Part shown: positions 1 to 45,406 of the stretch, piece after piece
Layout: each line of letters starts with the position of its first letter
Numbering within the stretch: position 1 is the first letter of the stretch
Assembly: GCA_042219475.1 (NCBI GenBank)
Contig: JBDGPX010000042.1
Coordinates: 1-55,308, forward strand
Length of the DNA stretch: 55,308 nucleotides
Direction of reading: 5' to 3'
Source of the DNA: Halobacteriales archaeon
Lineage (GTDB): Archaea > Halobacteriota > Halobacteria > Halobacteriales > Hikarchaeaceae
Notes under the pieces: model-generated
The model's input: the letters and a program-made list of their open reading frames with translations, nothing else
What the model was told of the DNA's origin: nothing
The model's database searches: none
Made by a program: the position numbers and the translations under genes

Positions 1-323
1 TCGAGACGGTGAATCCCCGGAACACGTCGAAGGCGTGCCACGCCTGCGGTGAACATGGCTACCGGCCACGACAGGCGACGTTCAGATGTTCGAACGACGA
101 CTGTTGGGTGGGTGAGTATCAAGCCGACGTGAACGGGGCGATAAACAATGCAGACAAGTATCACGACCGTAGTGGAGAGAGTCACGGCCGAAGCGAGCGG
201 GTTTGCCGGCAGAAGGCCGGTGACGATGACTCGGCTACGGATGGGGCTTCGTTGACCGGGCCACAAGACAGCCACGCGGATGCTGAACCCCAGCAGGTGA
301 GGCGTGGAACGGATGGGTCTTGA
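1..323 (+). CDS. tnpB: 3' part of RNA-guided endonuclease TnpB (IS200/IS605 family), truncated by the window edge
   Basis: VNPRNTSKACHACG...FRCSNDDC zinc ribbon followed by the RuvC-III motif QADVNGAIN; low-complexity C-terminal tail overlapping the omegaRNA. Confidence 0.93.
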   Translation, partial: ETVNPRNTSKACHACGEHGYRPRQATFRCSNDDCWVGEYQADVNGAINNADKYHDRSGESHGRSERVCRQKAGDDDSATDGASLTGPQDSHADAEPQQVRRGTDGS

Positions 324-398
324 AACCAACAGGCCGCAGTGCTGGGCCTGAAATCCCGTGGTGGGATTCCTCCGTGTTTACGCGGAGGAGGAGGTCAA
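1..398 (+). mobile_element. Right part of an IS200/IS605 (IS1341-like) element
   Basis: tnpB 3' end, subterminal hairpin CCTCCGTG-TTTA-CGCGGAGG (369-388) and terminal TCAA (395-398). Confidence 0.9.
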
Positions 399-418
399 CA
401 CATCCTCGATACCGTGAT
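170..418 (+). ncRNA. TnpB omegaRNA / haloarchaeal sense-overlapping RNA: scaffold plus ~20-nt guide from the flank; 5' end approximate
   Basis: Multiple stems (CAAGAC 264-269 with GTCTTG 317-322; AATCCC/GGGATT; terminal hairpin); homologous to the copy at ~43830-44058. Confidence 0.8.
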
Positions 419-1957: not shown

Positions 1958-3426
1958 CCCACACGATCCTCGTCGCCGGAACGGCGAGTCACGTTGGCAA
2001 GAGTACGATCGTCGCCGGCCTCTGCCGCCGGCTCGCCCGACAGGGAACGGCGGTCGCCCCGTTCAAGGCGCAGAACATGAGCAACAACGCACGGGCGGTG
2101 CTGACGCCGGACGGCGAATGGGGGGAGATCGGCGTCTCACAGTTCGTCCAAGCGCGGGCCGCGACCGTGACGCCGACGACCGACATGAACCCCGTGCTGT
2201 TGAAACCCCGCGGCGAGGGCGAGAGTCAACTCGTCATCGACGGCGAGGCGATCGGCCATTACGAGCCCGGAGCGTACTACCGGGACCACTGGGATCACGC
2301 CCAACAGGCAGCCCGTGACGCCTACGAACGGTTGGCGGCGAAGCAGGACGTGATCATCGCCGAGGGCGCGGGGAGCATCGCCGAGATCAACCTCCACGAC
2401 CGCGATCTGGCGAACATCGAGACCGCCCGGTTCGCCGACGCATCGATCCTTCTCGTTGGCGACATCGAACGCGGTGGCGTCTTTGCCAGCCTCTATGGCA
2501 CGCTCGAACTCATGCCGGCGGACCTCCGGGACCGCGTCGAAGGGATCCTTATCACCAAATTCCGGGGAGACGATGCACTCCTCGAGCCCGGGATCGAGGA
2601 GCTGGAGGCCCGGACGGACGTGCCGGTCCTCGATGTCATCCCGTACGACGATCCGGGATTGCCCGAGGAGGACAGCGTCGCCCTCCCCTCGACGGAGGAA
2701 CGCACCGTCATCGGTACCGATGAGATGCCATCGGAGGCGGCGGTCACCATCGGTGTGCCCCGGCTTCCGCGGATTTCGAACTTCACGGACCTCGCACCGC
2801 TGGCCCGCGTCCCGGGTGTCCGCGTCGCATATGTCCCGCTCGATACGGGATTGGCCGATGTCGACGCCGTCGTCATTCCCGGGACGAAGAACACGGTCGA
2901 TGATCTGTTGGTCCTGCAGGACGCCGGATTCGACGACATCCTCACCGACTTTGAAGGCCCGATCGTCGGCATCTGCGGTGGTTACCAGATGCTCGGCGAG
3001 CGGATCACGAACGCCGCGATCGAGGGGACGGGGGACGAGGACGTCATCGATGGGATCGGGCTACTCCCCGTCGAGACCCGCTTTACCCACCGAAAACAGG
3101 TCCAGCAGATGACAGTGGAGATCAGTGGGAGTGGTCCGATCGACGGCGCCCGGGGGATCGTCTCGGGTTACGAGATCCACATGGGTCGGACCACGCCGGC
3201 GACACCGGTTGCTCAACCGCTGGAGGAACAGAGCGTCGCCACGGAATCCGTCCTCGGGACCTATCTCCACGGTCTCTTCGAAAACGCGCCGGTTCGCGAT
3301 GCGTTTCTCGACACGGTGTTCGAAACGGCCGACAAACAGCGTCCGGACAGGTCGGCGGATATACGGTCGCCGTATGCTGCGGCCGCCGATCAGGTCGGAG
3401 ATATCGACCTCTCGGCGCTGTGCTGA
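1954..3426 (+). CDS. cobQ: Cobyric acid synthase (CbiP/CobQ)
   Basis: [67 protein letters not shown]. Confidence 0.97.
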
Positions 3427-3585
3427 TGGGTATTCCGGCCCGAGCGTCACCGACCGAGGCCTGGAAGATCGACGGGATCCGGCGGTAGAAGCAAAAGTCA
3501 TCGATCGATGTTCCACCGAGCGGGGCCATGGAAACGATCGATGGACACACACGACCCGTCGAGGACGGCCCGACAATCGACCGGA

Positions 3586-3795
3586 TCAATCGGGCCGAAA
3601 CGCGTCGACGACGGCGGCGGCCGACCGTTCCAACCCGAGTTGCTCCCGGAGGCGTTCGACTTCCGGATGGTCGAGGTTGACGTGCGGACAGAAGGCGCCA
3701 CAGGTCTCCTCGGGACATTTGACCTCGACCAGCATGACGTCGTAGGGGCGCTCGACAGCCGTTCCCCCACACTGGGCACATTCGTATGTCGGCAT
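3586..3795 (-). CDS. Small (69 aa) CxxC zinc-finger protein
   Basis: MPTYECAQCGG...CPEETCG: two Cys pairs, typical of haloarchaeal small Zn-finger proteins. Confidence 0.7.
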   Translation of the reverse strand: MPTYECAQCGGTAVERPYDVMLVEVKCPEETCGAFCPHVNLDHPEVERLREQLGLERSAAAVVDAFRPD

Positions 3796-4087: not shown

Positions 4088-4314
4088 ATCCGAGAACGCT
4101 GGTCACAACAGGATTGATTCCGAGCCACACGGGATCGGCTGACAGCACTCATTACCCTGGTCCGCTCGGCCGGAACGGCGGAATCTCATCCGGTCAATGG
4201 TATGCGATCGGTCTACTGTAGTGCGATTGGAGAACAGGGAAATCATCGACTCGGTTCAGTTTCACTAAGGAGTGAGAACCTTCTTATCACAGTGACCGGT
4301 AATGGATGTACCGA

Positions 4315-7300
4315 ATGGCCCAGACCGACGAACGGGAACTCGTCGATCGGTTCGAGCAGTTCTACCGGAACTACTACCGCGATGAGATCGGGGATCTCGC
4401 CCAACAGTATCCCACCGAACGCCGGTCGCTACATATCGACTGGCAGGACCTCTATCGCTTCGATCCGGACATCGCCGACGATTACCTCGCCCAGCCGGAT
4501 CAGCTCCGGGAGTACGCCGAGGAGGCCCTCCGACTCTACGATCTCCCAGTCGACGTGAGCCTCGGGCAGGCCCATGTCCGCATCGAGAACCTCTCGGACA
4601 CAACGGAGATCCGTGACATCCGCTCGCGGGACGTCAACACTCTCGTCGCCGTCCAGGGCATCGTCCGCAAGGCGACGGACGTCCGCCCGAAAGTCGAGGA
4701 GGCCGCCTTCGAATGCCAGCGCTGTGGAACGCTTACCTACATCCCCCAGACCGAGGGGGGGTTTCAGGAACCGCACGAGTGCCAGGGCTGTGAACGCCAG
4801 GGTCCCTTCGGCATCAACTACGACCAATCGACGTTCGTCGATGCCCAGAAACTCCGTGTCCAGGAGAGCCCCGAAGGGCTCCGTGGCGGCGAGACGCCCC
4901 AGAGCATCGACGTCAACATCGAGGACGACATCACCGGCGAGGTGACCCCCGGCGACCACGTCACGGTCACCGGTGCCCTCCGGATCGAACAGCAGGAGTC
5001 GGGCGGCCAGAAATCCCGCCTGTTCGACGTCTACATGGACGGCCACTCGCTGACGATCGAGGACGAAGAGTACGAGGACATGGACATCACCGAGGCCGAC
5101 CGCCAGGCGATCGTCGAACTCTCGAACGCGCCCGATCTCTACGAGCAGATGGTCGACTCGATCGCCCCTTCGATCTACGGGTATGAGAAGATCAAACTCG
5201 CCATCGCCCTCCAACTGTTCTCGGGCGTGACGAAACACCTCCCCGACGAATCTAGAATTCGGGGCGATATGCATATGCTTCTGATCGGGGACCCTGGGAC
5301 GGGGAAATGCGTCGGTGGCGATACGAGAGTGACACTCTCGGATGGACGTGAGATCCCCATCCGTAAATTAGTCGAAGAAAATCTCACCGATCCGAAACCA
5401 GTCGACGATGGAGTGTACGACGAGGTCGAGTTCACGGTCCCTTCGCTAGGCATCGACGGATCGATGGAGCATCAGCGAGCGACGAAAGTGTGGAAGCGAG
5501 AAGCACCGGATCGGATGTACTGCATTCGGACGGCGAGTGGACGGGAAGTCGAGGTGACGCCATCACACCCGCTGTTCGTCCAAGCCGACGGACAGTACAA
5601 ACCGGTGACTGCTGATAACCTCACGACCGGCGACTTCGTCGCAGTACCGCGAACACGTCCGGTGACGGGTAAAGATACGATAGACATCGGCTATCGTGAG
5701 TCGAAAGCATCGAACGCTGTTCGTCTCGATCTTCCCGAGGAATGGACACCGTGGCTTGCCCGTCTCATCGGCTATATCATCGCTGCTGGAGACGTCGAGC
5801 ACCGGGACGATAATGGTGGCTTTGTCTCGATTACGAACACCGATCAAGAGGTACTCGACGATGCAGCGGAAGCACTCGAACGACTCGGGGTTAATCACTT
5901 CGAACGCGGTCCACACAAGGGCAAGCAAGCCAGCGAGTTGATCTGCACAGCCGGCGAATTGGTGCGGTTCCTCGATAATCTCGAACTATCGATTCTGGAC
6001 GGATCAGCCGAACAACGAGTGCCGGAAGCGGTGATGCAAGCAACGTCGTCGATCAAAGAGTCGTTCTTGAAAGCGTACGTCGAAGGAGAGGGACGCGTCT
6101 CGACGACGGAACGAGAGATTACGGTAACATCAGCGAGCCGTGAATTGATAGCGAATCTCCGGAGCCTTCTTTTGGCTTGCGGGATCGGATCACAGCTCGA
6201 AACGCGTTGGGATGACAGCTATCGCCTGCGAATCAGCGGCGCGAACTTCGTCAGATACGCCGAGACAATCGGCTTTATTACGGACCGGAAAACCGCTGCA
6301 ACTCACGAGTCCGAGGGAACAGCGAAAAACACGACTATCGACGTGATCCCGGATATCGGCGACGAGTTACGCCGAATCAGGGAAACGCTCGAACTCGCAC
6401 AATCCGACTGTAATATTCCACGAACGACCTATCAACACTACGAACGTGGCGATCGAAACCCGAGTCACCACCACCTCCGAATGATTGTTGAGGCGTTCGA
6501 GCAACGCCTTGTGTGGTTGCGTGAAACACGGAATCGTATTGAGAACGGAAACTGGGAGGATATTGAAACCATCAGACAAGAGTTGAATATTGCTCGGAAA
6601 ACGCTCGCTGATGGGATGGATGTCACACAGTCCGCGATCGATTACTACGAACAAAAAAACGTGGTGCCGGATGGGGGACAGACCGCAGCTGCGAGACAAA
6701 CAGTACGCGACCAGATCAAGCGATCGCTCAACGTCGCTGAGGACATCAGAGCACTCCGTGAACTCACCGATGACGACGTCAGCTGGGAGCGGATCGAATC
6801 GATCCGGACGGTGGATCCCGACTACGACTGGGTCTACGATCTCGAGGTTGAAAATACTCACAATTACCTCACCAACGGTATTCTGTCACATAACTCACAG
6901 CTCTTGCAGTATATCCGCAATATCGCTCCACGATCGGTGTACACCTCGGGGAAAGGATCATCGGCCGCCGGCCTTACGGCGAGTGCGGTTCGCGATGATT
7001 TCGGCGACGGTCAACAGTGGACACTAGAAGCAGGTGCCCTCGTCCTCGCAGACAAGGGGATCGCTGCTGTCGACGAGTTAGACAAGATGCGGTGTGTCAC
7101 CGGCGATACGCTCGTCCGAATGGGTGATGGCCACAACAGACCAATCGAAACGGTAGCACGGCAGGCAGCAAACGAGGGAGAAATCGAGACGCTTGCCAAC
7201 GGTCGAACGATTCGCGATGTCGATGCATCAGTATATACCATGACTGATGACGAACGGATCGTCCGCCGACCGATCACAGCAGTTCACGAGTATACCGCGC

Positions 7301-34731: not shown

Positions 34732-35035
34732 CGGCGGGATTTCGCGCGCCAACTTGTTAGACCTTGCTGTTCGCGCCAGCCGCCGAGACGTCGTTACAGG
34801 TCAATTCAACGGAATTCAGCGGGCAAAATGAGGACAATCGTGATTGGTATTCGATCGAGACCAAAGGAGTACAAAGAACAAACAGCGTCGACAACGCCGA
34901 GCGAACGGCTAAACTAATCCGTTCGCGATCGACGAAGGCAGTCGGTCTCTCAAGCGCCATCAGGAATAGAGTAGAGTAGAGTCTTACCGAAAAGCCGGGG
35001 CTTTAGACAGTAGATCGTCCAACCCTGACTAACGA

Positions 35036-35767
35036 ATGGCAGCTTTCGACTCCTTCGACGTGATTCCTGCCGTCGATATGCAGGACGGCGAAGTCGTCCA
35101 ACTTGTGCAGGGTAAACGCGGGACCGAAAAGCGGTATGGCGATCCCGTCGAAGCCGCCGACCGGTGGGTCGCCGCCGGTGCTAATACCCTCCATGTCATC
35201 GATCTCGATGGAGCCTTCGAGGGGGAGCGACAGAACGCTCCGGCGGTCGATCGAATCATCGAAGCCGTCGACATCGAAATCCAGCTCGGTGGCGGCATCC
35301 GGACTGCCGAGGACGCGATGGACCTGCTCGACCGCGGGATCGATCGCGTGATTCTGGGAACGGCGGCCGTCGAAACGCCCGAGATCGTCGGCGAGATCGC
35401 TGCCGTGCATCCGGATGGCGTGATGGTCAGCCTCGATGCAAAGGATGGTGAAGTGGTCGTCTCGGGCTGGCAGGAAGGAACCGGTCTGGACCCGGCGGCC
35501 GCCGCCCAGCGCTATGAGGAACTAGGAGCGGCGGCGATCCTGTTTACGAACGTCGACGTGGAGGGCCAACTTGCCGGCGTGCGGACTGAACCGGTCGCCC
35601 GGCTTGTCGAAGCGGTGGACATTCCAGTCGTCGCCAGCGGCGGGGTTGCGACCATCGATGACATCGTCGCACTCCGGGATGTCGGGGCAGCGGCGGTCGT
35701 CGTCGGGAGCGCGCTGTATGAGGGTCGATTCTCGCTCGCCGAGGCGATCGAAGCCGCGGTCAAATAG
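35036..35767 (+). CDS. hisA: ProFAR isomerase HisA
   Basis: IPAVD, HVIDLDGA, QLGGGIR, VASGG. Confidence 0.96.
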   Translation: MAAFDSFDVIPAVDMQDGEVVQLVQGKRGTEKRYGDPVEAADRWVAAGANTLHVIDLDGAFEGERQNAPAVDRIIEAVDIEIQLGGGIRTAEDAMDLLDRGIDRVILGTAAVETPEIVGEIAAVHPDGVMVSLDAKDGEVVVSGWQEGTGLDPAAAAQRYEELGAAAILFTNVDVEGQLAGVRTEPVARLVEAVDIPVVASGGVATIDDIVALRDVGAAAVVVGSALYEGRFSLAEAIEAAVK

Positions 35768-41986: not shown

Positions 41987-42157
41987 ATGCCAGTACTCGG
42001 GATGCCGACGGACATGTTTCTCGTGTTCGTCGCGACACTGATCGCAGGTAGTATCGGGGCGATGCACTTCATCGTCGTCCACGTGATCATGGGCAAACCG
42101 GTCGACGAAGGAGTTCTGATAGCCACTCAAGAGCGAGGTGAGAGCGATGGTAGTTGA
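41987..42157 (+). CDS. 56-aa single-TM protein upstream of the symporter (below the ORF-track cutoff)
   Basis: MPVLGMPTDMFLVFVATLIAGSIGAMHFIVVHVIMGKP...; overlaps the symporter start by 11 nt. Confidence 0.75.
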   Translation: MPVLGMPTDMFLVFVATLIAGSIGAMHFIVVHVIMGKPVDEGVLIATQERGESDGS

Positions 42158-43610
42158 TCAGTTAGGTGAGGGAGTTAATCCGTTTTACCTCGGGACATTC
42201 ATCGTTTATCTGTTGATCGTGCTTGCCATCGGCGCATGGGGCTATCGACAGACAACGGACGTCAATGACTTCTGGGTCTACGGTAAAGACCTCGGGCCAT
42301 GGCTGGCGACCTGGTCGTATGTCGCGAACTTCGTCTCGGCGGTCTCGGTGATCGGGTTTATCGGCGCCGTCTACGGCGGCGGTTACTCGATCCTGACCGG
42401 GATCATCCTCGGCCTGATGCTGGGCGTATCGGCGCTGTATTTCGTGGTGCACAAGGTCCGCGAGCTAGATAAGGTGACCTTCCCTGACATCATCAGAGAA
42501 CTGACCGGCCGGGAAGTCGCTCGTCCGATCGCGGCGATTCCTCTGCTCGCGAACGCGTGGGTCTACCTGATCATGCAGCTGGTGGGCGCAAGCCTGCTGG
42601 TGACGACGATCACCGGCGTCCCCTACAAGTACATGATTTGGGTGATCGGCTTCGTCTTCATTGCCTACACCGTGATGGGAGGCCTCATCTCGGTCGCCTG
42701 GACGGATCTGATCCAGGGCACGGTGATGGTATCGACGGTATTCCTCGCGCTGATCTTCATCGTCATCGACCAGGGTGGCTTGACGGCGATCAACACCCAA
42801 TTCACCCAACTTGAAGCCGCCAACACCATGCCGCTCGGTGACGGAGCGTACACTATTATCGGAATGCTCGGTTCACTAGTAGCGTTCTTCGGGACCATCT
42901 TCACCTCCCAGGGGACGATCATTCGAATCAACGCGACCAAGGACATCCGGACGGCGAAGATCCACCTCGCCTTCGGTGGGTTGATCCTTTCGGTGTTCTA
43001 CATGGCACTGATCCTGCTGGGCGGTGGTGTCGACGTCGCGCTACACAACGCCGGATTAGCGAACTTCGAAAACGTCGACCAAGCGTTCCCCGTGTTCATC
43101 ACTGAGTACCTGCCAACTGGGATCGGCGTCATCGTGATCCTGGCGGTGATGTCAGCGATCCTCTCGACCACCGATACGCGCCTACACTCGACGGGAGTGA
43201 CGACCGCACGCGACATCTACGACTGGTACGCCGAGGATGCCTCGGACGAACAGCTCATGAAGGTCTCGCGGATCGCGACGATCTTCTGGGGGCTGACGGC
43301 GACGGCGATGGCGGTCGATCCGCCGGGAACGATCATTACGCTGTATACGTTCCGGGCGATCCTGCTGACTAGTGCCTTCCTAATCCCGATCTATCTCGGG
43401 TTGTACTGGCGCGGGGTTGCCGGCAACGCGGTTATCGCGTCGATCATCGTAGGGACAATCCTCGGCGTCGGCTGGGATCTCAGCGGTGGCTTCTTCGGCG
43501 TCCCGGCGACGTTTATGGGCGTCGGCGGCGCGATTCTCGCCCTAGTGATCGGCCACTACATCTGGTCGGAATCGGGCGGCTCACCGACGGCCACCGCAGC
43601 CGGCGAGTAA
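42147..43610 (+). CDS. Sodium:solute symporter (PutP/SSS family)
   Basis: About 13 TM helices; YTVMGGLISVAWTDLIQG, SAILSTTD; SD-like GAGGTGA upstream. Confidence 0.93.
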   Translation: MVVDQLGEGVNPFYLGTFIVYLLIVLAIGAWGYRQTTDVNDFWVYGKDLGPWLATWSYVANFVSAVSVIGFIGAVYGGGYSILTGIILGLMLGVSALYFVVHKVRELDKVTFPDIIRELTGREVARPIAAIPLLANAWVYLIMQLVGASLLVTTITGVPYKYMIWVIGFVFIAYTVMGGLISVAWTDLIQGTVMVSTVFLALIFIVIDQGGLTAINTQFTQLEAANTMPLGDGAYTIIGMLGSLVAFFGTIFTSQGTIIRINATKDIRTAKIHLAFGGLILSVFYMALILLGGGVDVALHNAGLANFENVDQAFPVFITEYLPTGIGVIVILAVMSAILSTTDTRLHSTGVTTARDIYDWYAEDASDEQLMKVSRIATIFWGLTATAMAVDPPGTIITLYTFRAILLTSAFLIPIYLGLYWRGVAGNAVIASIIVGTILGVGWDLSGGFFGVPATFMGVGGAILALVIGHYIWSESGGSPTATAAGE

Positions 43611-43640: not shown

Positions 43641-43683
43641 GATCAGATATGGCGAAGAGCCGCGGGCGTCTCGTCCGCTTGAT

Positions 43684-44058
43684 TAACCGATAGCGGATAC
43701 CGCCGTCTTGAGGCGGAGGTCGAGCGGTCGGCCGGATGGGCAGCCGCCGACAGTGGCCGGGCGGGATTTCGACGGTTAAGCGTTTGTTGTGGCCCGGTGT
43801 AGCATAGAGTGCTACGGAATCGGTGATATACCGGCCCCGAAGGAGGGGGATGGCGAGCCAACAGTGGTTCGCACGGCGATGACACGGATTCCGATGGGAC
43901 CTGTTTGACCGGGCCACAGCCCGATACGGGAGAGCAAACGAGCGTTTCGCCGGGATATTCCCGGTTCCCCCCTGAGTGCGGGTTGGAACCTCGAACGCCA
44001 CACCCGGCGGGAATTCCATGGTGGGATTCCACGTCCTTCAGGGCCTGGAGGAGGTCAA
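43684..44058 (+). mobile_element. Non-autonomous IS200/IS605-derived element containing only an omegaRNA
   Basis: Preceded by TTGAT (43679-43683); left hairpin CCGCCGTCTTGAGGCGG (43700-43716); right end GTGGGATTCC...GGAGGAGGTCAA matching 361-398; no tnpA/tnpB ORF. Confidence 0.82.
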
Positions 44059-44078
44059 TAACCGATAGGGATCGAATG
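43810..44078 (+). ncRNA. Stand-alone TnpB omegaRNA (scaffold plus guide); 5' end approximate
   Basis: Shares CGATGAC, GATGGG, TTGACCGGGCCACA (43905-43918 = 252-265) and the 3' end with the tnpB-linked copy; compensatory stem changes. Confidence 0.8.
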
Positions 44079-44093
44079 CGAACCGGTGGACCG

Positions 44094-45254
44094 TCAGTCC
44101 AACAGCTCCCGGACGGCCCGCTTCAACACACGGAGTCCCGTGCCGGCCTGTGCGAGGTCGGTGTGTTCGTCGAACGTGTGAGCCTGATCGAGCGGACCAG
44201 GACCCCAGGTGACGGCTTCGATATCGGCGTCATTGACGAAGTTCCGGACATCGGTAGAGGCCTGGATGCCCCAGGGATCGCGTGAGATATCGGCGATGTC
44301 CTCGCTGTGGTCCCGGAGCGTCTCCGCCAGTTCGCTGTCGACAGGGATCTCGGCGGATTCGTAGGTGCGGGTACGCTCCCACTCGATTTCGATGTCGTGT
44401 TCGTCCTCGATGTCAGAGAGCAAAGCATCGATCTCGGCATCGATCTCCTCGGTCGATTCGGCCGGCAAGAACCGACGGTCGATCGTGATCGTTGCCCGTT
44501 CGGGAACGACGTTCTCCTTAGTGCCAGCTTCGAACATCGTGACCGTCGAGTACGCCTGCCCGACCAGCTCGTCCTCCCGCTGGCGGACCCTGGCATCATA
44601 CTCGATCAGGGCATCCAGTACCGGTCGGGCGTTGAGGATGGCGTTCGAGCCCTGATCCGGCCGGCTCGCGTGGGATGGATCACCCTCGATCGTTATCTCG
44701 TACCACGCGAGGCCTTTCTCGCTGGTCGCGGTCCGCAGCTCTGTCGGCTCAAGGACGACACCGTAATCGCCGTCGTATCCCAGCTCCAGCAGGCGTTTGG
44801 TTCCCGGTTCGGCAGTTTCCTCGCCGATGGCGGCATGGACGACGATCGATCCGTCGATGTCGCCCGATTCCAGGGGCTCCTGCAATTCGGCCGCCGCCAT
44901 CATCGCGACGGCGACACCACCTTTCATATCCGCACTACCTCGGCCATAGAGTTTACCATCCTCGATCGTACCACCGTATGGATCGTAGGCCCATTCGTCG
45001 CGGTCCCCGGCCGGAACGACATCGATGTGGCCATTCAGGACGACGGTCGGGTCGCCCGAACCGACTTGAGCGGCGACCTGTGGTCGGTCCTCGTAGGGAT
45101 CGCCGATGAGTTCGGCATCGATCCCGCGATCGCTGAACCACTCCTGAATGTATTCGGCACACGGTGCTTCATTGCCCGGCGGGTTTTCGGTCTCGATCGA
45201 GACCAGATCGGCGAGCAACGATTCGAGCTCCTCGTGGCGTGGTACGGCTGCCAT
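44094..45254 (-). CDS. M20 metallopeptidase/deacylase (ArgE/DapE family)
   Basis: NGHIDVVP, GRGSADMKGG, GEE, HAS.P, GPG..DQAH..DE. Confidence 0.93.
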   Translation of the reverse strand: MAAVPRHEELESLLADLVSIETENPPGNEAPCAEYIQEWFSDRGIDAELIGDPYEDRPQVAAQVGSGDPTVVLNGHIDVVPAGDRDEWAYDPYGGTIEDGKLYGRGSADMKGGVAVAMMAAAELQEPLESGDIDGSIVVHAAIGEETAEPGTKRLLELGYDGDYGVVLEPTELRTATSEKGLAWYEITIEGDPSHASRPDQGSNAILNARPVLDALIEYDARVRQREDELVGQAYSTVTMFEAGTKENVVPERATITIDRRFLPAESTEEIDAEIDALLSDIEDEHDIEIEWERTRTYESAEIPVDSELAETLRDHSEDIADISRDPWGIQASTDVRNFVNDADIEAVTWGPGPLDQAHTFDEHTDLAQAGTGLRVLKRAVRELLD

Positions 45255-45406
45255 AGCCGAAGTGAGACCGACTCGGCGCAAAAAGCCATCGTCGTCGTGA
45301 AGAACCACGAGTGATTAACGGCTATCGGGCGGCCAGCACGGCGTATCAAGACAGGGACAACGGTGACCCAAGGATCTTGCCTATCCGGCCCCGAAACGGG
45401 CTATCG

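What the first reader, a model, noticed from the sequence alone, without database searches (positions are those of the whole stretch)
43684..44078. Protein-free IS200/IS605 mini-element carrying a stand-alone, structurally conserved TnpB omegaRNA
Seen: the non-coding gap between the symporter and the M20 gene aligns with the omegaRNA overlapping tnpB at 170-398. GACGATGACTCGGCTACGGATGGGGCTTCGTTGACCGGGCCACA matches GGCGATGACACGGATTCCGATGGGACCTGTTTGACCGGGCCACA, and both end GTGGGATTCC-hairpin-GGAGGAGGTCAA. The stems differ in sequence but keep their pairing: CAAGAC/GTCTTG (264-269/317-322) versus CAGCCC/GGGTTG (43917-43922/43980-43985), and the terminal hairpins have TTTA versus TTCA loops. There is no tnpA or tnpB coding sequence, only a left hairpin and a TATA-like TTAAG (43776-43780). 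Known: TnpB is guided by a right-end-derived RNA whose guide is the flank 3' of TCAA. Inference: this is a self-transcribed guide-RNA cassette that is mobilised by TnpA and loaded on TnpB in trans, with its RNA structure under selection.
Basis: partly seen in the sequence, partly recalled or inferred. Interest (0 to 1): 0.85.

Follow-up and report, generated by a model that had tools for sequence, protein, structure and literature searches.

The report
Protein-free transposon carrying a guide RNA
A 375-base mobile element with no gene, common in salt-loving archaea, keeps only its transposon ends, a promoter-like block and a complete guide-RNA scaffold of the TnpB nuclease type; the kind of element is already known, but this family is unusually widespread and conserved.

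Summary
Window 43684-44058 is a 375-bp protein-free IS200/IS605-type element. It has a TGAT left flank, a left-end hairpin, a promoter-like block, a 244-nt omegaRNA-type scaffold (43815-44058) and a right end closing in TCAA.

This is a PATE (palindrome-associated transposable element), a kind described in haloarchaea in 2011. PATE-derived RNAs were shown to be expressed in Halobacterium in 2015. A 2023 preprint states that PATEs "often encode omegaRNAs" that must use TnpB in trans.

What is new is the scale:
- The same mini-element occurs in 45 of 301 genomes of the order, and in 74 named Halobacteria loci.
- It sits at the 3' end of a tnpB gene at 0 of 97 distinct sites.
- Some isolates hold copies 97.6-99.6% identical with unrelated flanks.
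- Covariation supports 12 helices plus a pseudoknot: 93% of cells paired, 30 of 77 pairs with double changes.
It matches, helix for helix, the tnpB-linked omegaRNA at window 167-398.

Transcription, TnpB loading and TnpA mobilisation remain inferred. No TnpA was found in this 72%-complete genome.

Verdict: a new member of a known kind, of moderate interest.

The parts
43680..43683 (+). TGAT target / presumed TAM. It abuts the left end and is not part of the element.
   Evidence: TGAT stands at this place in 52 of 57 distinct elements that have a left and a right end. Sequences further upstream are unrelated.
43684..43814 (+). Left end (LE). It holds a subterminal hairpin (43700-43719, loop TTGA, one G.A mismatch) and a promoter-like conserved block (about 43764-43790).
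   Evidence: Aligns to the LE of copies in this and other genomes, and to the LE plus promoter region upstream of the ATG of a full-length tnpB element, L026. The LE stem covaries among copies: CCTCCG/CGGAGG, CCTGCG/CGCAGG, CCCGCG/CGCGGG. Promoter function is inferred.
43815..44058 (+). omegaRNA-type scaffold, 244 nt.
- P1: 43815-25 / 43883-93
- P2: 43829-33 / 43874-78
- P3: 43835-38 / about 43845-50
- P4: 43853-59 / 43866-72
- P5: 43898-901 / 43912-15
- Pseudoknot: 43905-10 / 44053-58
- P6: 43917-22 / 43980-85
- P7: 43928-33 / 43966-72
- P8: 43934-37 / 43945-48
- P9: 43950-55 / 43959-64
- P10: 43996-99 / 44006-09
- P11: 44012-17 / 44023-28
- P12: 44029-36 / 44041-48
   Evidence: In the 64-copy alignment A4, 93.2% of cells are paired, against 31-50% when partners are slid. 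30 of 77 pairs show changes on both sides, and 0 of 500 shuffles reach the observed values. The same architecture is seen in 23 tnpB-linked copies.
44029..44058 (+). Right end (RE): subterminal hairpin with a TTCA loop (44029-44048, one C.C mismatch in this copy), a linker, and the terminal GGTCAA ending in TCAA.
   Evidence: Conservation among 64 copies stops exactly after this point. Sub-threshold match to the 3' part of Rfam HgcC.
44059..44076 (+). 3' flank: the presumed guide segment of the RNA. Its length is inferred.
   Evidence: This stretch is unrelated among all copies. Its guide role follows from what is established for TnpB omegaRNAs and was not tested here.
43684..43693 (+). 10-nt direct repeat. 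The first 10 nt of the element are identical to the first 10 nt of the 3' flank (44059-44068).
   Evidence: Not seen in the other copies listed, judged by eye. With TGAT in front, this left junction is the only site in the genome that matches TAM plus the first 12 guide bases with 2 or fewer mismatches. Unexplained.
167..398 (+). The comparison copy: the omegaRNA scaffold overlapping the 3' end of a tnpB gene. The ORF reaches the stop at 321-323, and the gene is cut by the contig start.
   Evidence: Translation and the Pfam PF07282 match. The fragment is 84% identical to residues 327-430 of the 430-aa TnpB of L026. Helices are given.

Best explanation
Window 43684-44058 is a PATE, a non-autonomous, protein-free derivative of an IS200/IS605 (IS1341-type, tnpB-only) element of a haloarchaeon. 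It consists of four things and essentially nothing else: the left end with its TnpA-type hairpin; the promoter-like region that in full-length relatives precedes tnpB; a complete 244-nt TnpB omegaRNA-type scaffold; and the right end closing in TCAA.

Proposed mechanism:
1. The left-end promoter transcribes straight into the scaffold and on into about 16-20 nt of flanking DNA, which serves as the guide.
2. The RNA is loaded by a TnpB encoded elsewhere in the genome.
3. That complex cuts TGAT-flanked empty sites, so the element is kept or copied by homing.
4. The element moves as single-stranded DNA through a Y1 TnpA supplied in trans, inserting 3' of TGAT without a target duplication.

Shown here: the anatomy, homology to a tnpB-linked omegaRNA, family-wide covariation of the RNA helices, the TGAT/TCAA borders, wide dispersal, absence of tnpB linkage, and recent copying in other genomes.

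Inferred: transcription, TnpB loading and cleavage, mobilisation by TnpA, and whether this particular copy is still active.
For: Anatomy and borders
- TGAT flanks 52 of 57 distinct elements.
- Conservation ends at TCAA in 64 of 64 aligned copies, apart from TCAC/TCAG variants.

No coding capacity
- Only a 14-residue TnpB relic lies inside the scaffold.
- PF07282 and PF01797 searches find nothing in the gap.

Homology to a real tnpB-linked omegaRNA
- Alignment A1.
- The same helices P1 (with the same G.G mismatch at its eighth position), P2, P5, pseudoknot, P6, P10-P12 appear in 23 tnpB-linked copies: 96.8% of cells paired, 20 of 61 pairs with double changes, 0 of 500 shuffles reach this.

Structure under selection in the mini family
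- 93.2% of cells paired, against 31-50% when slid.
- 30 of 77 pairs and 324 cells have double changes; 0 of 500 shuffles reach this.
- The pseudoknot changes from UUGACC/GGUCAA to GUGACC/GGUCAC in 6 copies.
- 73% of stem substitutions keep pairing.

Dispersal
- 3 copies plus fragments in the own genome.
- 9 of 31 relatives.
- 45 of 301 genomes of the order.
- 74 loci, all in named Halobacteria.
- 31 plasmid records, nearly all unannotated at the match.

Never at the 3' end of a tnpB gene
- 0 of 97 distinct sites; 83 of these had at least 1 kb of upstream sequence to examine.
- The two sites with TnpB-like coding upstream are insertions of one mobile element into another.

Recent mobility
- 4 copies at 98.4-99.6% identity in one isolate and 4 copies at 97.6-99.2% in another, with unrelated flanks.
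- Y1 TnpA is present in 5 of 5 tested genomes that hold the element.

Literature
- PATEs are defined in PMC3119063 (passages read).
- PATE-derived RNAs are expressed in Halobacterium (PMC4615843, passages read).
Against: - There is no expression data for this element or its family.
- No TnpA (PF01797) was found in the own genome. The assembly is only 72% complete, so this is weak evidence.
- The only tnpB of the matching type in the assembly is cut by a contig end.
- Close relatives (60% identity or more) of the best-matching TnpB type were listed in only 18 of the 45 genomes that hold the mini-element. This is a hand tally, in which 67 matches were not listed. Five near-complete genomes with the element (G022, G141, G162, G181, G205) had none listed. 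The partner TnpB is therefore not identified.
- The three copies in this genome are old (79-86% identical).
- The window copy has mismatches in both terminal hairpins and in P2, P5 and P7, so it may be inactive.
- The central domain (P7-P9) differs from that of every tnpB-linked copy seen, so recognition by the same TnpB is not assured.
- Single-sequence folding is not by itself remarkable (z = -1.6).
- The structure I tested was drawn by hand from these same alignments, which favours it in the counts.
Confidence: 0.78

Rival explanations
1. The window copy is a dead relic. The family is or was functional, but this copy, and the two others in this genome, are decaying and neither move nor supply a working guide RNA. 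This is compatible with the main explanation at family level.
For: - The copies in this genome are only 79-86% identical to each other.
- The window copy has 7 unpaired positions of 77. These include one mismatch in each terminal hairpin and a TTGA loop in place of TTCA in the left hairpin.
- No TnpA was found in the assembly.
Against: - 12 of 18 stem substitutions in the window copy keep pairing, close to the family mean of 73%.
- One of the 7 mismatches is the family-wide G.G, and one is an alignment artefact in P3.
- At least five left ends and five right ends of a closely related element sit at contig ends. Near-identical repeats therefore exist in this genome, and the assembly is 28% incomplete.
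Confidence: 0.3
2. The RNA works without TnpB, for example as a regulatory small RNA or as a decoy for TnpA. This was proposed for PATE-derived and sot RNAs before omegaRNAs were understood.
For: - Overexpression of a PATE-derived RNA and of a sotRNA improved growth of Halobacterium salinarum (PMC4615843, passages read).
- There is no strict co-occurrence with the closest TnpB type.
Against: - The conserved helices match, one for one, those of the tnpB-linked omegaRNA, including the pseudoknot that ends at the last base of the element.
- Conservation stops exactly where a guide would begin.
- TnpB homologues are abundant in these genomes: 12 Zn-ribbon matches in the own genome and many candidates per genome.
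Confidence: 0.1
3. The conserved pairing serves the single-stranded DNA transposition intermediate rather than an RNA.
For: IS200/IS605 elements move as single-stranded DNA of the same strand (established knowledge). The terminal hairpins are TnpA recognition sites and covary.
Against: - TnpA is known to need only the subterminal hairpins and cleavage sites. Here ten internal helices and a long-range pseudoknot also covary.
- Many pairs are G.U: P6 has G.U in 64 of 64 copies, and P1 column pair 35/110 has G.U in 29 of 64.
- The same internal helices are kept inside the coding region of tnpB-linked copies, as expected for an omegaRNA.
Confidence: 0.05
4. It is a recent, local deletion derivative of a tnpB element with no family of its own.
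For: The element keeps a 14-residue relic of the TnpB C-terminus. Other independent deletion derivatives of the tnpB-linked type do exist in this genome, on C130, C14, C26, C43 and C142.
Against: The same fused arrangement, with the same junction, occurs in 45 of 301 genomes of the order and in 74 named loci. It lies at 0 of 97 sites next to its own tnpB.
Confidence: 0.02

Closest known systems
PATEs (palindrome-associated transposable elements) of Haloquadratum walsbyi and other haloarchaea (Dyall-Smith et al. 2011, PMC3119063)
   Same: Protein-free, with no terminal inverted repeats, subterminal palindromes like those of IS605-type elements, a short 4-5 nt targeting sequence at the left, and no target duplication. 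They are dispersed, are sometimes hit by other mobile elements, and some keep a C-terminal tnpB remnant (passages read).
   Different: That paper predates omegaRNAs and does not treat the elements as RNA genes. I could not see its supplementary tables (supplements are closed), so I cannot say whether this family is one of its HqIRS types. A Haloquadratum locus is among my hits (L114).
PATE-derived ncRNAs VNG_R0052 and VNG_R6334 and the sotRNAs of Halobacterium salinarum (Gomes-Filho et al. 2015, PMC4615843; Rfam sot0042 RF02656)
   Same: Intergenic RNAs from fused left and right ends, with the RE-like 8-bp stem and UUCA tetraloop. They are expressed and linked to Rfam HgcC. One of them is 275 nt long, starts about 226 nt before the hairpin and ends about 27 nt after it, which would fit the layout proposed here (passages read).
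   Different: No sequence link could be shown. The plasmid search returned no Halobacterium salinarum record. sot0042 scores 11.4 bits against a gathering score of 88. Their role was discussed without TnpB guidance.
PATE-like elements encoding omegaRNAs in Geobacillus stearothermophilus (Meers et al. 2023 preprint, PMC10055086)
   Same: The same concept: minimal IS200/IS605 elements without genes, 'which often encode omegaRNAs' that must be used in trans by TnpB and moved in trans by TnpA (Discussion passage read).
   Different: Those are bacterial, with different ends and different TAM/TEM motifs. Here the family spans a whole archaeal order, was never seen linked to tnpB, and has its own central RNA domain.
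tnpB-linked omegaRNA of the same superfamily (window 167-398; L026-type elements with a 430-aa TnpB)
   Same: P1 with the G.G mismatch, P2, P5 plus pseudoknot, the P6 stem, P10-P12, the shared single-stranded motifs, the TGAT left flank and the TCAA right end.
   Different: The interior of P6 differs: a three-way junction P7-P9 in the mini, against P6b/P6c in the tnpB-linked form. P3/P4 differ as well. The tnpB-linked RNA overlaps the last 50 or so codons of tnpB, whereas the mini has no ORF.
Rfam HgcC (RF00062)
   Same: The 3' module: two hairpins followed by GGAGGAGGUCA.
   Different: Below the gathering score: 21.5 bits (mini) and 30.6 bits (tnpB-linked copy) against 50.

Membership tests
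PATE (IS200/IS605-derived non-autonomous element) | Too short to encode a transposase; no tnpA or tnpB | tested here: met
   The element is 375 bp and all three forward frames are interrupted by stops. Only a 14-residue TnpB relic remains. There are no PF07282 or PF01797 matches in the gap.
PATE (IS200/IS605-derived non-autonomous element) | Subterminal palindromes at both ends that resemble those of IS605-type elements; no terminal inverted repeats | tested here: met
   The left hairpin is at 43700-43719 and the right hairpin at 44029-44048. Both are of the 8-bp stem plus tetraloop type and both covary across copies. The left end is homologous to that of a full tnpB element.
PATE (IS200/IS605-derived non-autonomous element) | Insertion next to a short conserved target, without target-site duplication | tested here: met
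   TGAT stands at the left in 52 of 57 elements. Flanks are unrelated and no duplication was seen in the other copies (by eye). The 10-nt repeat in the window copy is unique to it and remains unexplained.
PATE (IS200/IS605-derived non-autonomous element) | Mobility: several copies at different sites | tested here: met
   Four copies at 97.6-99.6% identity with unrelated flanks in each of two isolates; 97 distinct sites overall. An empty site for the window locus itself was not found, because the same-genus genome has a different insert there.
TnpB omegaRNA | Homology to the right-end / tnpB 3' region that gives rise to omegaRNAs | tested here: met
   Alignment to window 167-398 and to 22 further tnpB-linked copies, with the same helices.
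TnpB omegaRNA | Conserved structured scaffold that ends at the transposon border, followed by a variable guide taken from the flank | tested here: met
   Covariation. Conservation stops at TCAA in 64 aligned copies. The RNA's true 3' end was not measured.
TnpB omegaRNA | Transcribed and bound by TnpB; directs cleavage next to the TAM | not testable with these tools
   No RNA run was listed. Binding and cleavage need experiments.
Rfam HgcC (RF00062) / sot0042 (RF02656) | Score at or above the family's gathering threshold | tested here: not met
   HgcC scores 21.5 and 30.6 bits against 50. sot0042 scores 11.4 bits against 88. There were no gathering-level hits in the whole window.
MITE (miniature inverted-repeat element of a DDE transposon) | Terminal inverted repeats and a target-site duplication shared by copies | tested here: not met
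   The ends are not inverted repeats of each other. Only the window copy has a flanking 10-nt repeat.

The most novel reading that the evidence does not exclude
This PATE family is an independent, long-lived 'guide-RNA-only' lineage. It has shed tnpB altogether and evolves its own omegaRNA central domain under purifying selection. It persists across the whole order Halobacteriales as a hyperparasite that borrows both TnpA (to move) and TnpB (to home) from other elements, possibly from more than one TnpB clade.
Probability: 0.45. Interest if true: 0.6.

Novelty: new member of a known kind. Interest (0 to 1): 0.45.

Why it matters
If the RNA is loaded by TnpB in trans, this family is a clean natural example of the two modules of IS200/IS605 elements coming apart: the transposon ends and the guide RNA, with the guide RNA alone enough for long-term survival.

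The covariation-supported 244-nt structure, with its pseudoknot, gives a ready model for haloarchaeal omegaRNAs. It could seed an RNA family that current Rfam models miss. In the plasmid records searched, the copies are almost all unannotated: 26 of 31 records show no feature under the match, 3 show a protein-coding gene and 2 carry no annotation at all.

The young copies in cultured Natrinema and Halosimplex isolates make the in-trans hypothesis directly testable.

For genome annotation, it explains a recurrent, unannotated 330-440-bp intergenic repeat in Halobacteria.

Tried and rejected
- **Rfam at gathering thresholds.** No hit in the whole window. In E-value mode only sub-threshold HgcC and sot0042 matches appeared.
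- **Single-sequence folds.** z = -1.6 (mini) and -2.6 (tnpB-linked), not decisive alone.
- **RNAalifold on 29 copies**. It gave a partly different central fold (GGGC/GCCC hairpin). I replaced it with a hand-drawn model, because a double change in one copy and the cross-family comparison favour P5 plus pseudoknot and P6.
- **Empty site.** The same-genus genome G001 has the two flanking genes but a different 708-bp insert with a small ORF between them, so no clean empty site exists.
- **A supposed full-length parent in G021:C34.** This turned out to be a mini-element split by an IS1595-like insertion.
- **L058 and L065.** These looked 5'-truncated but are further protein-free variants.
- **L121 and L144.** These had TnpB-like coding upstream, but one is a TnpB element with its own right end inserted into a mini, and the other is a mini inserted into a decayed tnpB.
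- **Co-occurrence with the L026-type TnpB.** Not strict.
- **Link to the 275-nt Halobacterium RNA VNG_R6334.** Could not be tested, because no Halobacterium salinarum record was among the 31 plasmid hits.
- **Phage records and viral contigs.** No match.
- **RNA sequencing runs.** No RNA holder was listed.
- **Covariance model.** Not built. I did not attempt it because the scaffold (about 245-265 positions) is beyond the lengths for which the tool forecasts an acceptable calibration time. nhmmer and BLAST were used instead.
- **Supplementary tables of PMC3119063 and PMC4615843.** These list PATE types and sequences and could show that this family is already named. They were not seen because supplements are closed.
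- **Structure prediction, fold search, complex prediction and the large protein searches.** Not used.
Full report
**Observation.**
- The gap lies between an SSF-family symporter (42138-43610, +) and an M20 peptidase (44094-45308, -).
- The gap aligns with the 3' end of a tnpB gene at the window start. That gene is cut by the contig edge. Its last 106 residues carry the Cas12f1-like TNB zinc ribbon and are 84% identical to residues 327-430 of a 430-aa TnpB found in a relative, L026.
- All quoted motifs, stems and loops are at the stated coordinates.
- The gap has no coding capacity. The only protein relic is a 14-residue stretch corresponding to the TnpB C-terminus, and it lies inside the RNA scaffold.

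**Anatomy.** The element runs from 43684 to 44058 (375 bp). Its parts, in order:
- TGAT stands directly to its left.
- The left end holds an 8-bp hairpin with a tetraloop (43700-43719).
- A block follows (about 43764-43790) that is conserved among copies. It corresponds to the region about 30 nt upstream of the tnpB start codon in the full-length element L026. I read this block as the promoter, which is an inference.
- The scaffold occupies 43815-44058.
- The right end has the hairpin 44029-44048 and closes in TCAA.
- In alignments of 29 and 64 copies, conservation stops exactly after TCAA and the flanks are unrelated.

**Family in this genome.** The genome is an assembly of 159 contigs, 72% complete.
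- There is a second full-length copy (C17, 84% identity), a third with a different left part (C82, 80%) and a right-end fragment (C37).
- At least five left ends and five right ends of a closely related element sit at contig ends, so near-identical repeats broke the assembly. Whether these are minis or full elements cannot be told.
- Independent protein-free derivatives of the other, tnpB-linked RNA type also exist, on C130, C14, C26, C43 and C142.
- A right-end profile gave 19 hits in the genome. Only one of them (the window start) lies next to a TnpB zinc-ribbon match.

**Family elsewhere.**
- The mini-element matched in 9 of 31 relatives.
- A 276-nt stretch spanning the junction of the left-end region and the scaffold matched in 45 of 301 genomes of the order (31 of 91 genera, G000 included). 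Only two candidates per genome were scored.
- At least 12 further loci held one BLAST segment covering positions 9-375 or more at 74-83% identity.
- A motif pattern specific to this RNA's central domain found 74 loci in the genome collection. All are in named Halobacteria of many genera.
- The same pattern found none in viral contigs, and the element had no match in phage records.
- In 31 plasmid records the matches are mostly unannotated.
- Element lengths fall in classes of about 333-337, 363-372 and 408-443 bp, which differ in the left end.

**No tnpB linkage.**
- I collected 97 distinct sites with this central domain; 83 of them had at least 1 kb of upstream sequence.
- I searched the 1.7 kb upstream with two divergent TnpB proteins. 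Two sites scored.
- At L121, a complete TnpB element with its own right end is inserted into a mini.
- At L144, the mini sits inside a decayed tnpB N-terminal fragment.
- An apparent parent in G021 is a mini split by an IS1595-like insertion.
- So at 0 of 97 sites does the RNA lie in its native place at the end of a tnpB gene.
- The pattern search needs exact motifs, so diverged tnpB-linked relatives could have been missed.

**RNA structure.** RNAalifold on 29 copies already gave 65 pairs, 20 of them with compensatory changes. From the alignments I drew a model of 12 helices plus a pseudoknot.
- On 64 copies, 93.2% of cells form standard pairs, against 31-50% when partners are slid by 1-3 columns.
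- 30 of 77 pairs and 324 cells show changes on both sides.
- None of 500 shuffles reaches any observed measure.

Notable features:
- P1 is a long-range helix (43815-25 with 43883-93) that switches between two complementary versions in 15-28 copies.
- P4, P7, P9, P10 and the right-end hairpin P12 all covary.
- The pseudoknot joins the P5 loop to the last six bases of the element. It changes on both sides in six copies, taking the terminal TCAA to TCAC.

These controls have limits. The sequences are related, and the model was derived from them.

I then fetched the 3' ends of 20 further tnpB genes of the L026 type and aligned 23 tnpB-linked copies. They show the same P1 (with the same G.G mismatch at its eighth position), P2, P5, pseudoknot, P6 and P10-P12. 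Here 96.8% of cells are paired and 20 of 61 pairs have double changes.

Three conclusions follow:
- The omegaRNA scaffold of this superfamily begins at P1: window 167 in the tnpB-linked copy and 43815 in the mini.
- The mini keeps the whole scaffold and essentially nothing else of tnpB.
- What differs is the interior of P6 (a three-way junction P7-P9 in the mini) and P3/P4.

**Mobility.**
- TGAT precedes 52 of 57 distinct elements, and three of the five exceptions differ by one base.
- Four copies in one Halosimplex isolate are 98.4-99.6% identical. Four copies in one Natrinema isolate are 97.6-99.2% identical. Each has a different flank.
- The mini itself has therefore been copied recently.
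- Y1 transposase genes were found in 5 of 5 genomes with the element that I tested.
- None was found in the window's own incomplete genome.

**Partner TnpB.** Proteins at least 60% identical to the L026 TnpB were listed in 18 of the 45 genomes that hold the mini. This is my hand tally; 67 matches were not listed and only five candidates per genome were scored. Several near-complete genomes with the mini had none listed. The partner is therefore unidentified, and use by more than one TnpB clade is possible.

**State of the window copy.**
- It has 7 unpaired positions of 77, in the middle of the family's range. One is the family-wide G.G and one is an alignment artefact.
- 12 of its 18 stem substitutions keep pairing, against a family mean of 73%.
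- It carries one mismatch in each terminal hairpin.

I cannot tell whether it is active.

**An oddity.** The first 10 nt of the element equal the first 10 nt of its 3' flank. With TGAT in front, the element's own left junction is the only site in the genome that matches TAM plus the first 12 guide bases with two or fewer mismatches. Eight of these ten bases are ancestral left-end sequence. The flank may therefore be the stump of a second copy once inserted in tandem at the same TGAT. This is speculation.

**Comparison with the literature.**
- PATEs were defined in Haloquadratum in 2011, including types that keep C-terminal tnpB remnants and types hit by other mobile elements (PMC3119063, passages read).
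- In 2015, PATE-derived intergenic RNAs with the right-end tetraloop were shown to be expressed in Halobacterium salinarum, and the link to Rfam HgcC was noted (PMC4615843, passages read).
- A 2023 preprint on TnpB/IscB homing states that PATEs often encode omegaRNAs that must be used in trans (PMC10055086, passages read).
- Four full-text searches found no paper that describes this order-wide family or its structure. I saw listings only for the other hits, and supplements were closed.

**Verdict.** The element is a new, well-supported member of a known kind. The interest lies in the family's breadth, its complete loss of tnpB, and the strength of the structural evidence.

**Limits.** There is no expression, binding or transposition data. 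The assembly is incomplete. The structure model is hand-drawn.

Noticed in passing
window 43684-43693 and 44059-44068: A 10-nt direct repeat: the start of the element equals the start of its 3' flank. The presumed guide therefore partly matches the element's own TGAT-flanked left junction. This was not seen in the other copies I looked at.
   Followed up: partly
G000 contig ends (C4, C19, C70, C118, C129 left ends; C4, C20, C84, C110, C135 right ends): At least five left ends and five right ends of a closely related IS200/IS605-type element lie within 60 nt of contig ends. A near-identical multi-copy element broke this assembly, and its interior is not in the assembly.
   Followed up: partly
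G000 C130:~5272-5520(-), C14:~34980-35193(+), C26:~3370-3592(+), C43:~3466-3600(-), C142:~4143-4235(-): Further protein-free derivatives in the same genome, built from the other (tnpB-linked) omegaRNA type, with different deletion junctions. Loss of tnpB with retention of the RNA has happened repeatedly.
   Followed up: partly
L029 (G021:C34) 1350-2900; L121 2480-4112; L144 upstream of its mini: Mobile elements nested in each other: an IS1595-like element (332-aa ORF) splits a mini; a 444-aa TnpB element with its own right end sits inside another mini; a mini sits inside a decayed tnpB.
   Followed up: yes
alignment A4 columns 34/111 and alignment A5 columns 74/133 (window 43822/43886 and 174/233): The eighth position of helix P1 is a G.G mismatch in 23 of 23 tnpB-linked copies. 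In the minis it is not a standard pair in 44 of 64 copies (G.G in those I read), and it is C-G in 16. A conserved non-canonical pair like this may be a protein contact.
   Followed up: no
L036 (G001:C27) 2517-3224: In the same-genus genome, the symporter-M20 intergenic space holds an unrelated 708-bp insert with a small ORF of about 140 codons in place of the mini-element.
   Followed up: no
L064 (G065:C4), alignment A3 columns 121-173: One copy carries a 53-nt insertion just 5' of helix P5. It was not examined further.
   Followed up: no
window 279-411 and 43993-44067: Rfam HgcC (a family from methanogens and Thermococcales) matches the 3' module of both RNAs below threshold (30.6 and 21.5 bits, gathering score 50). 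This suggests the right-end module is shared across distant archaeal IS200/IS605 elements.
   Followed up: partly
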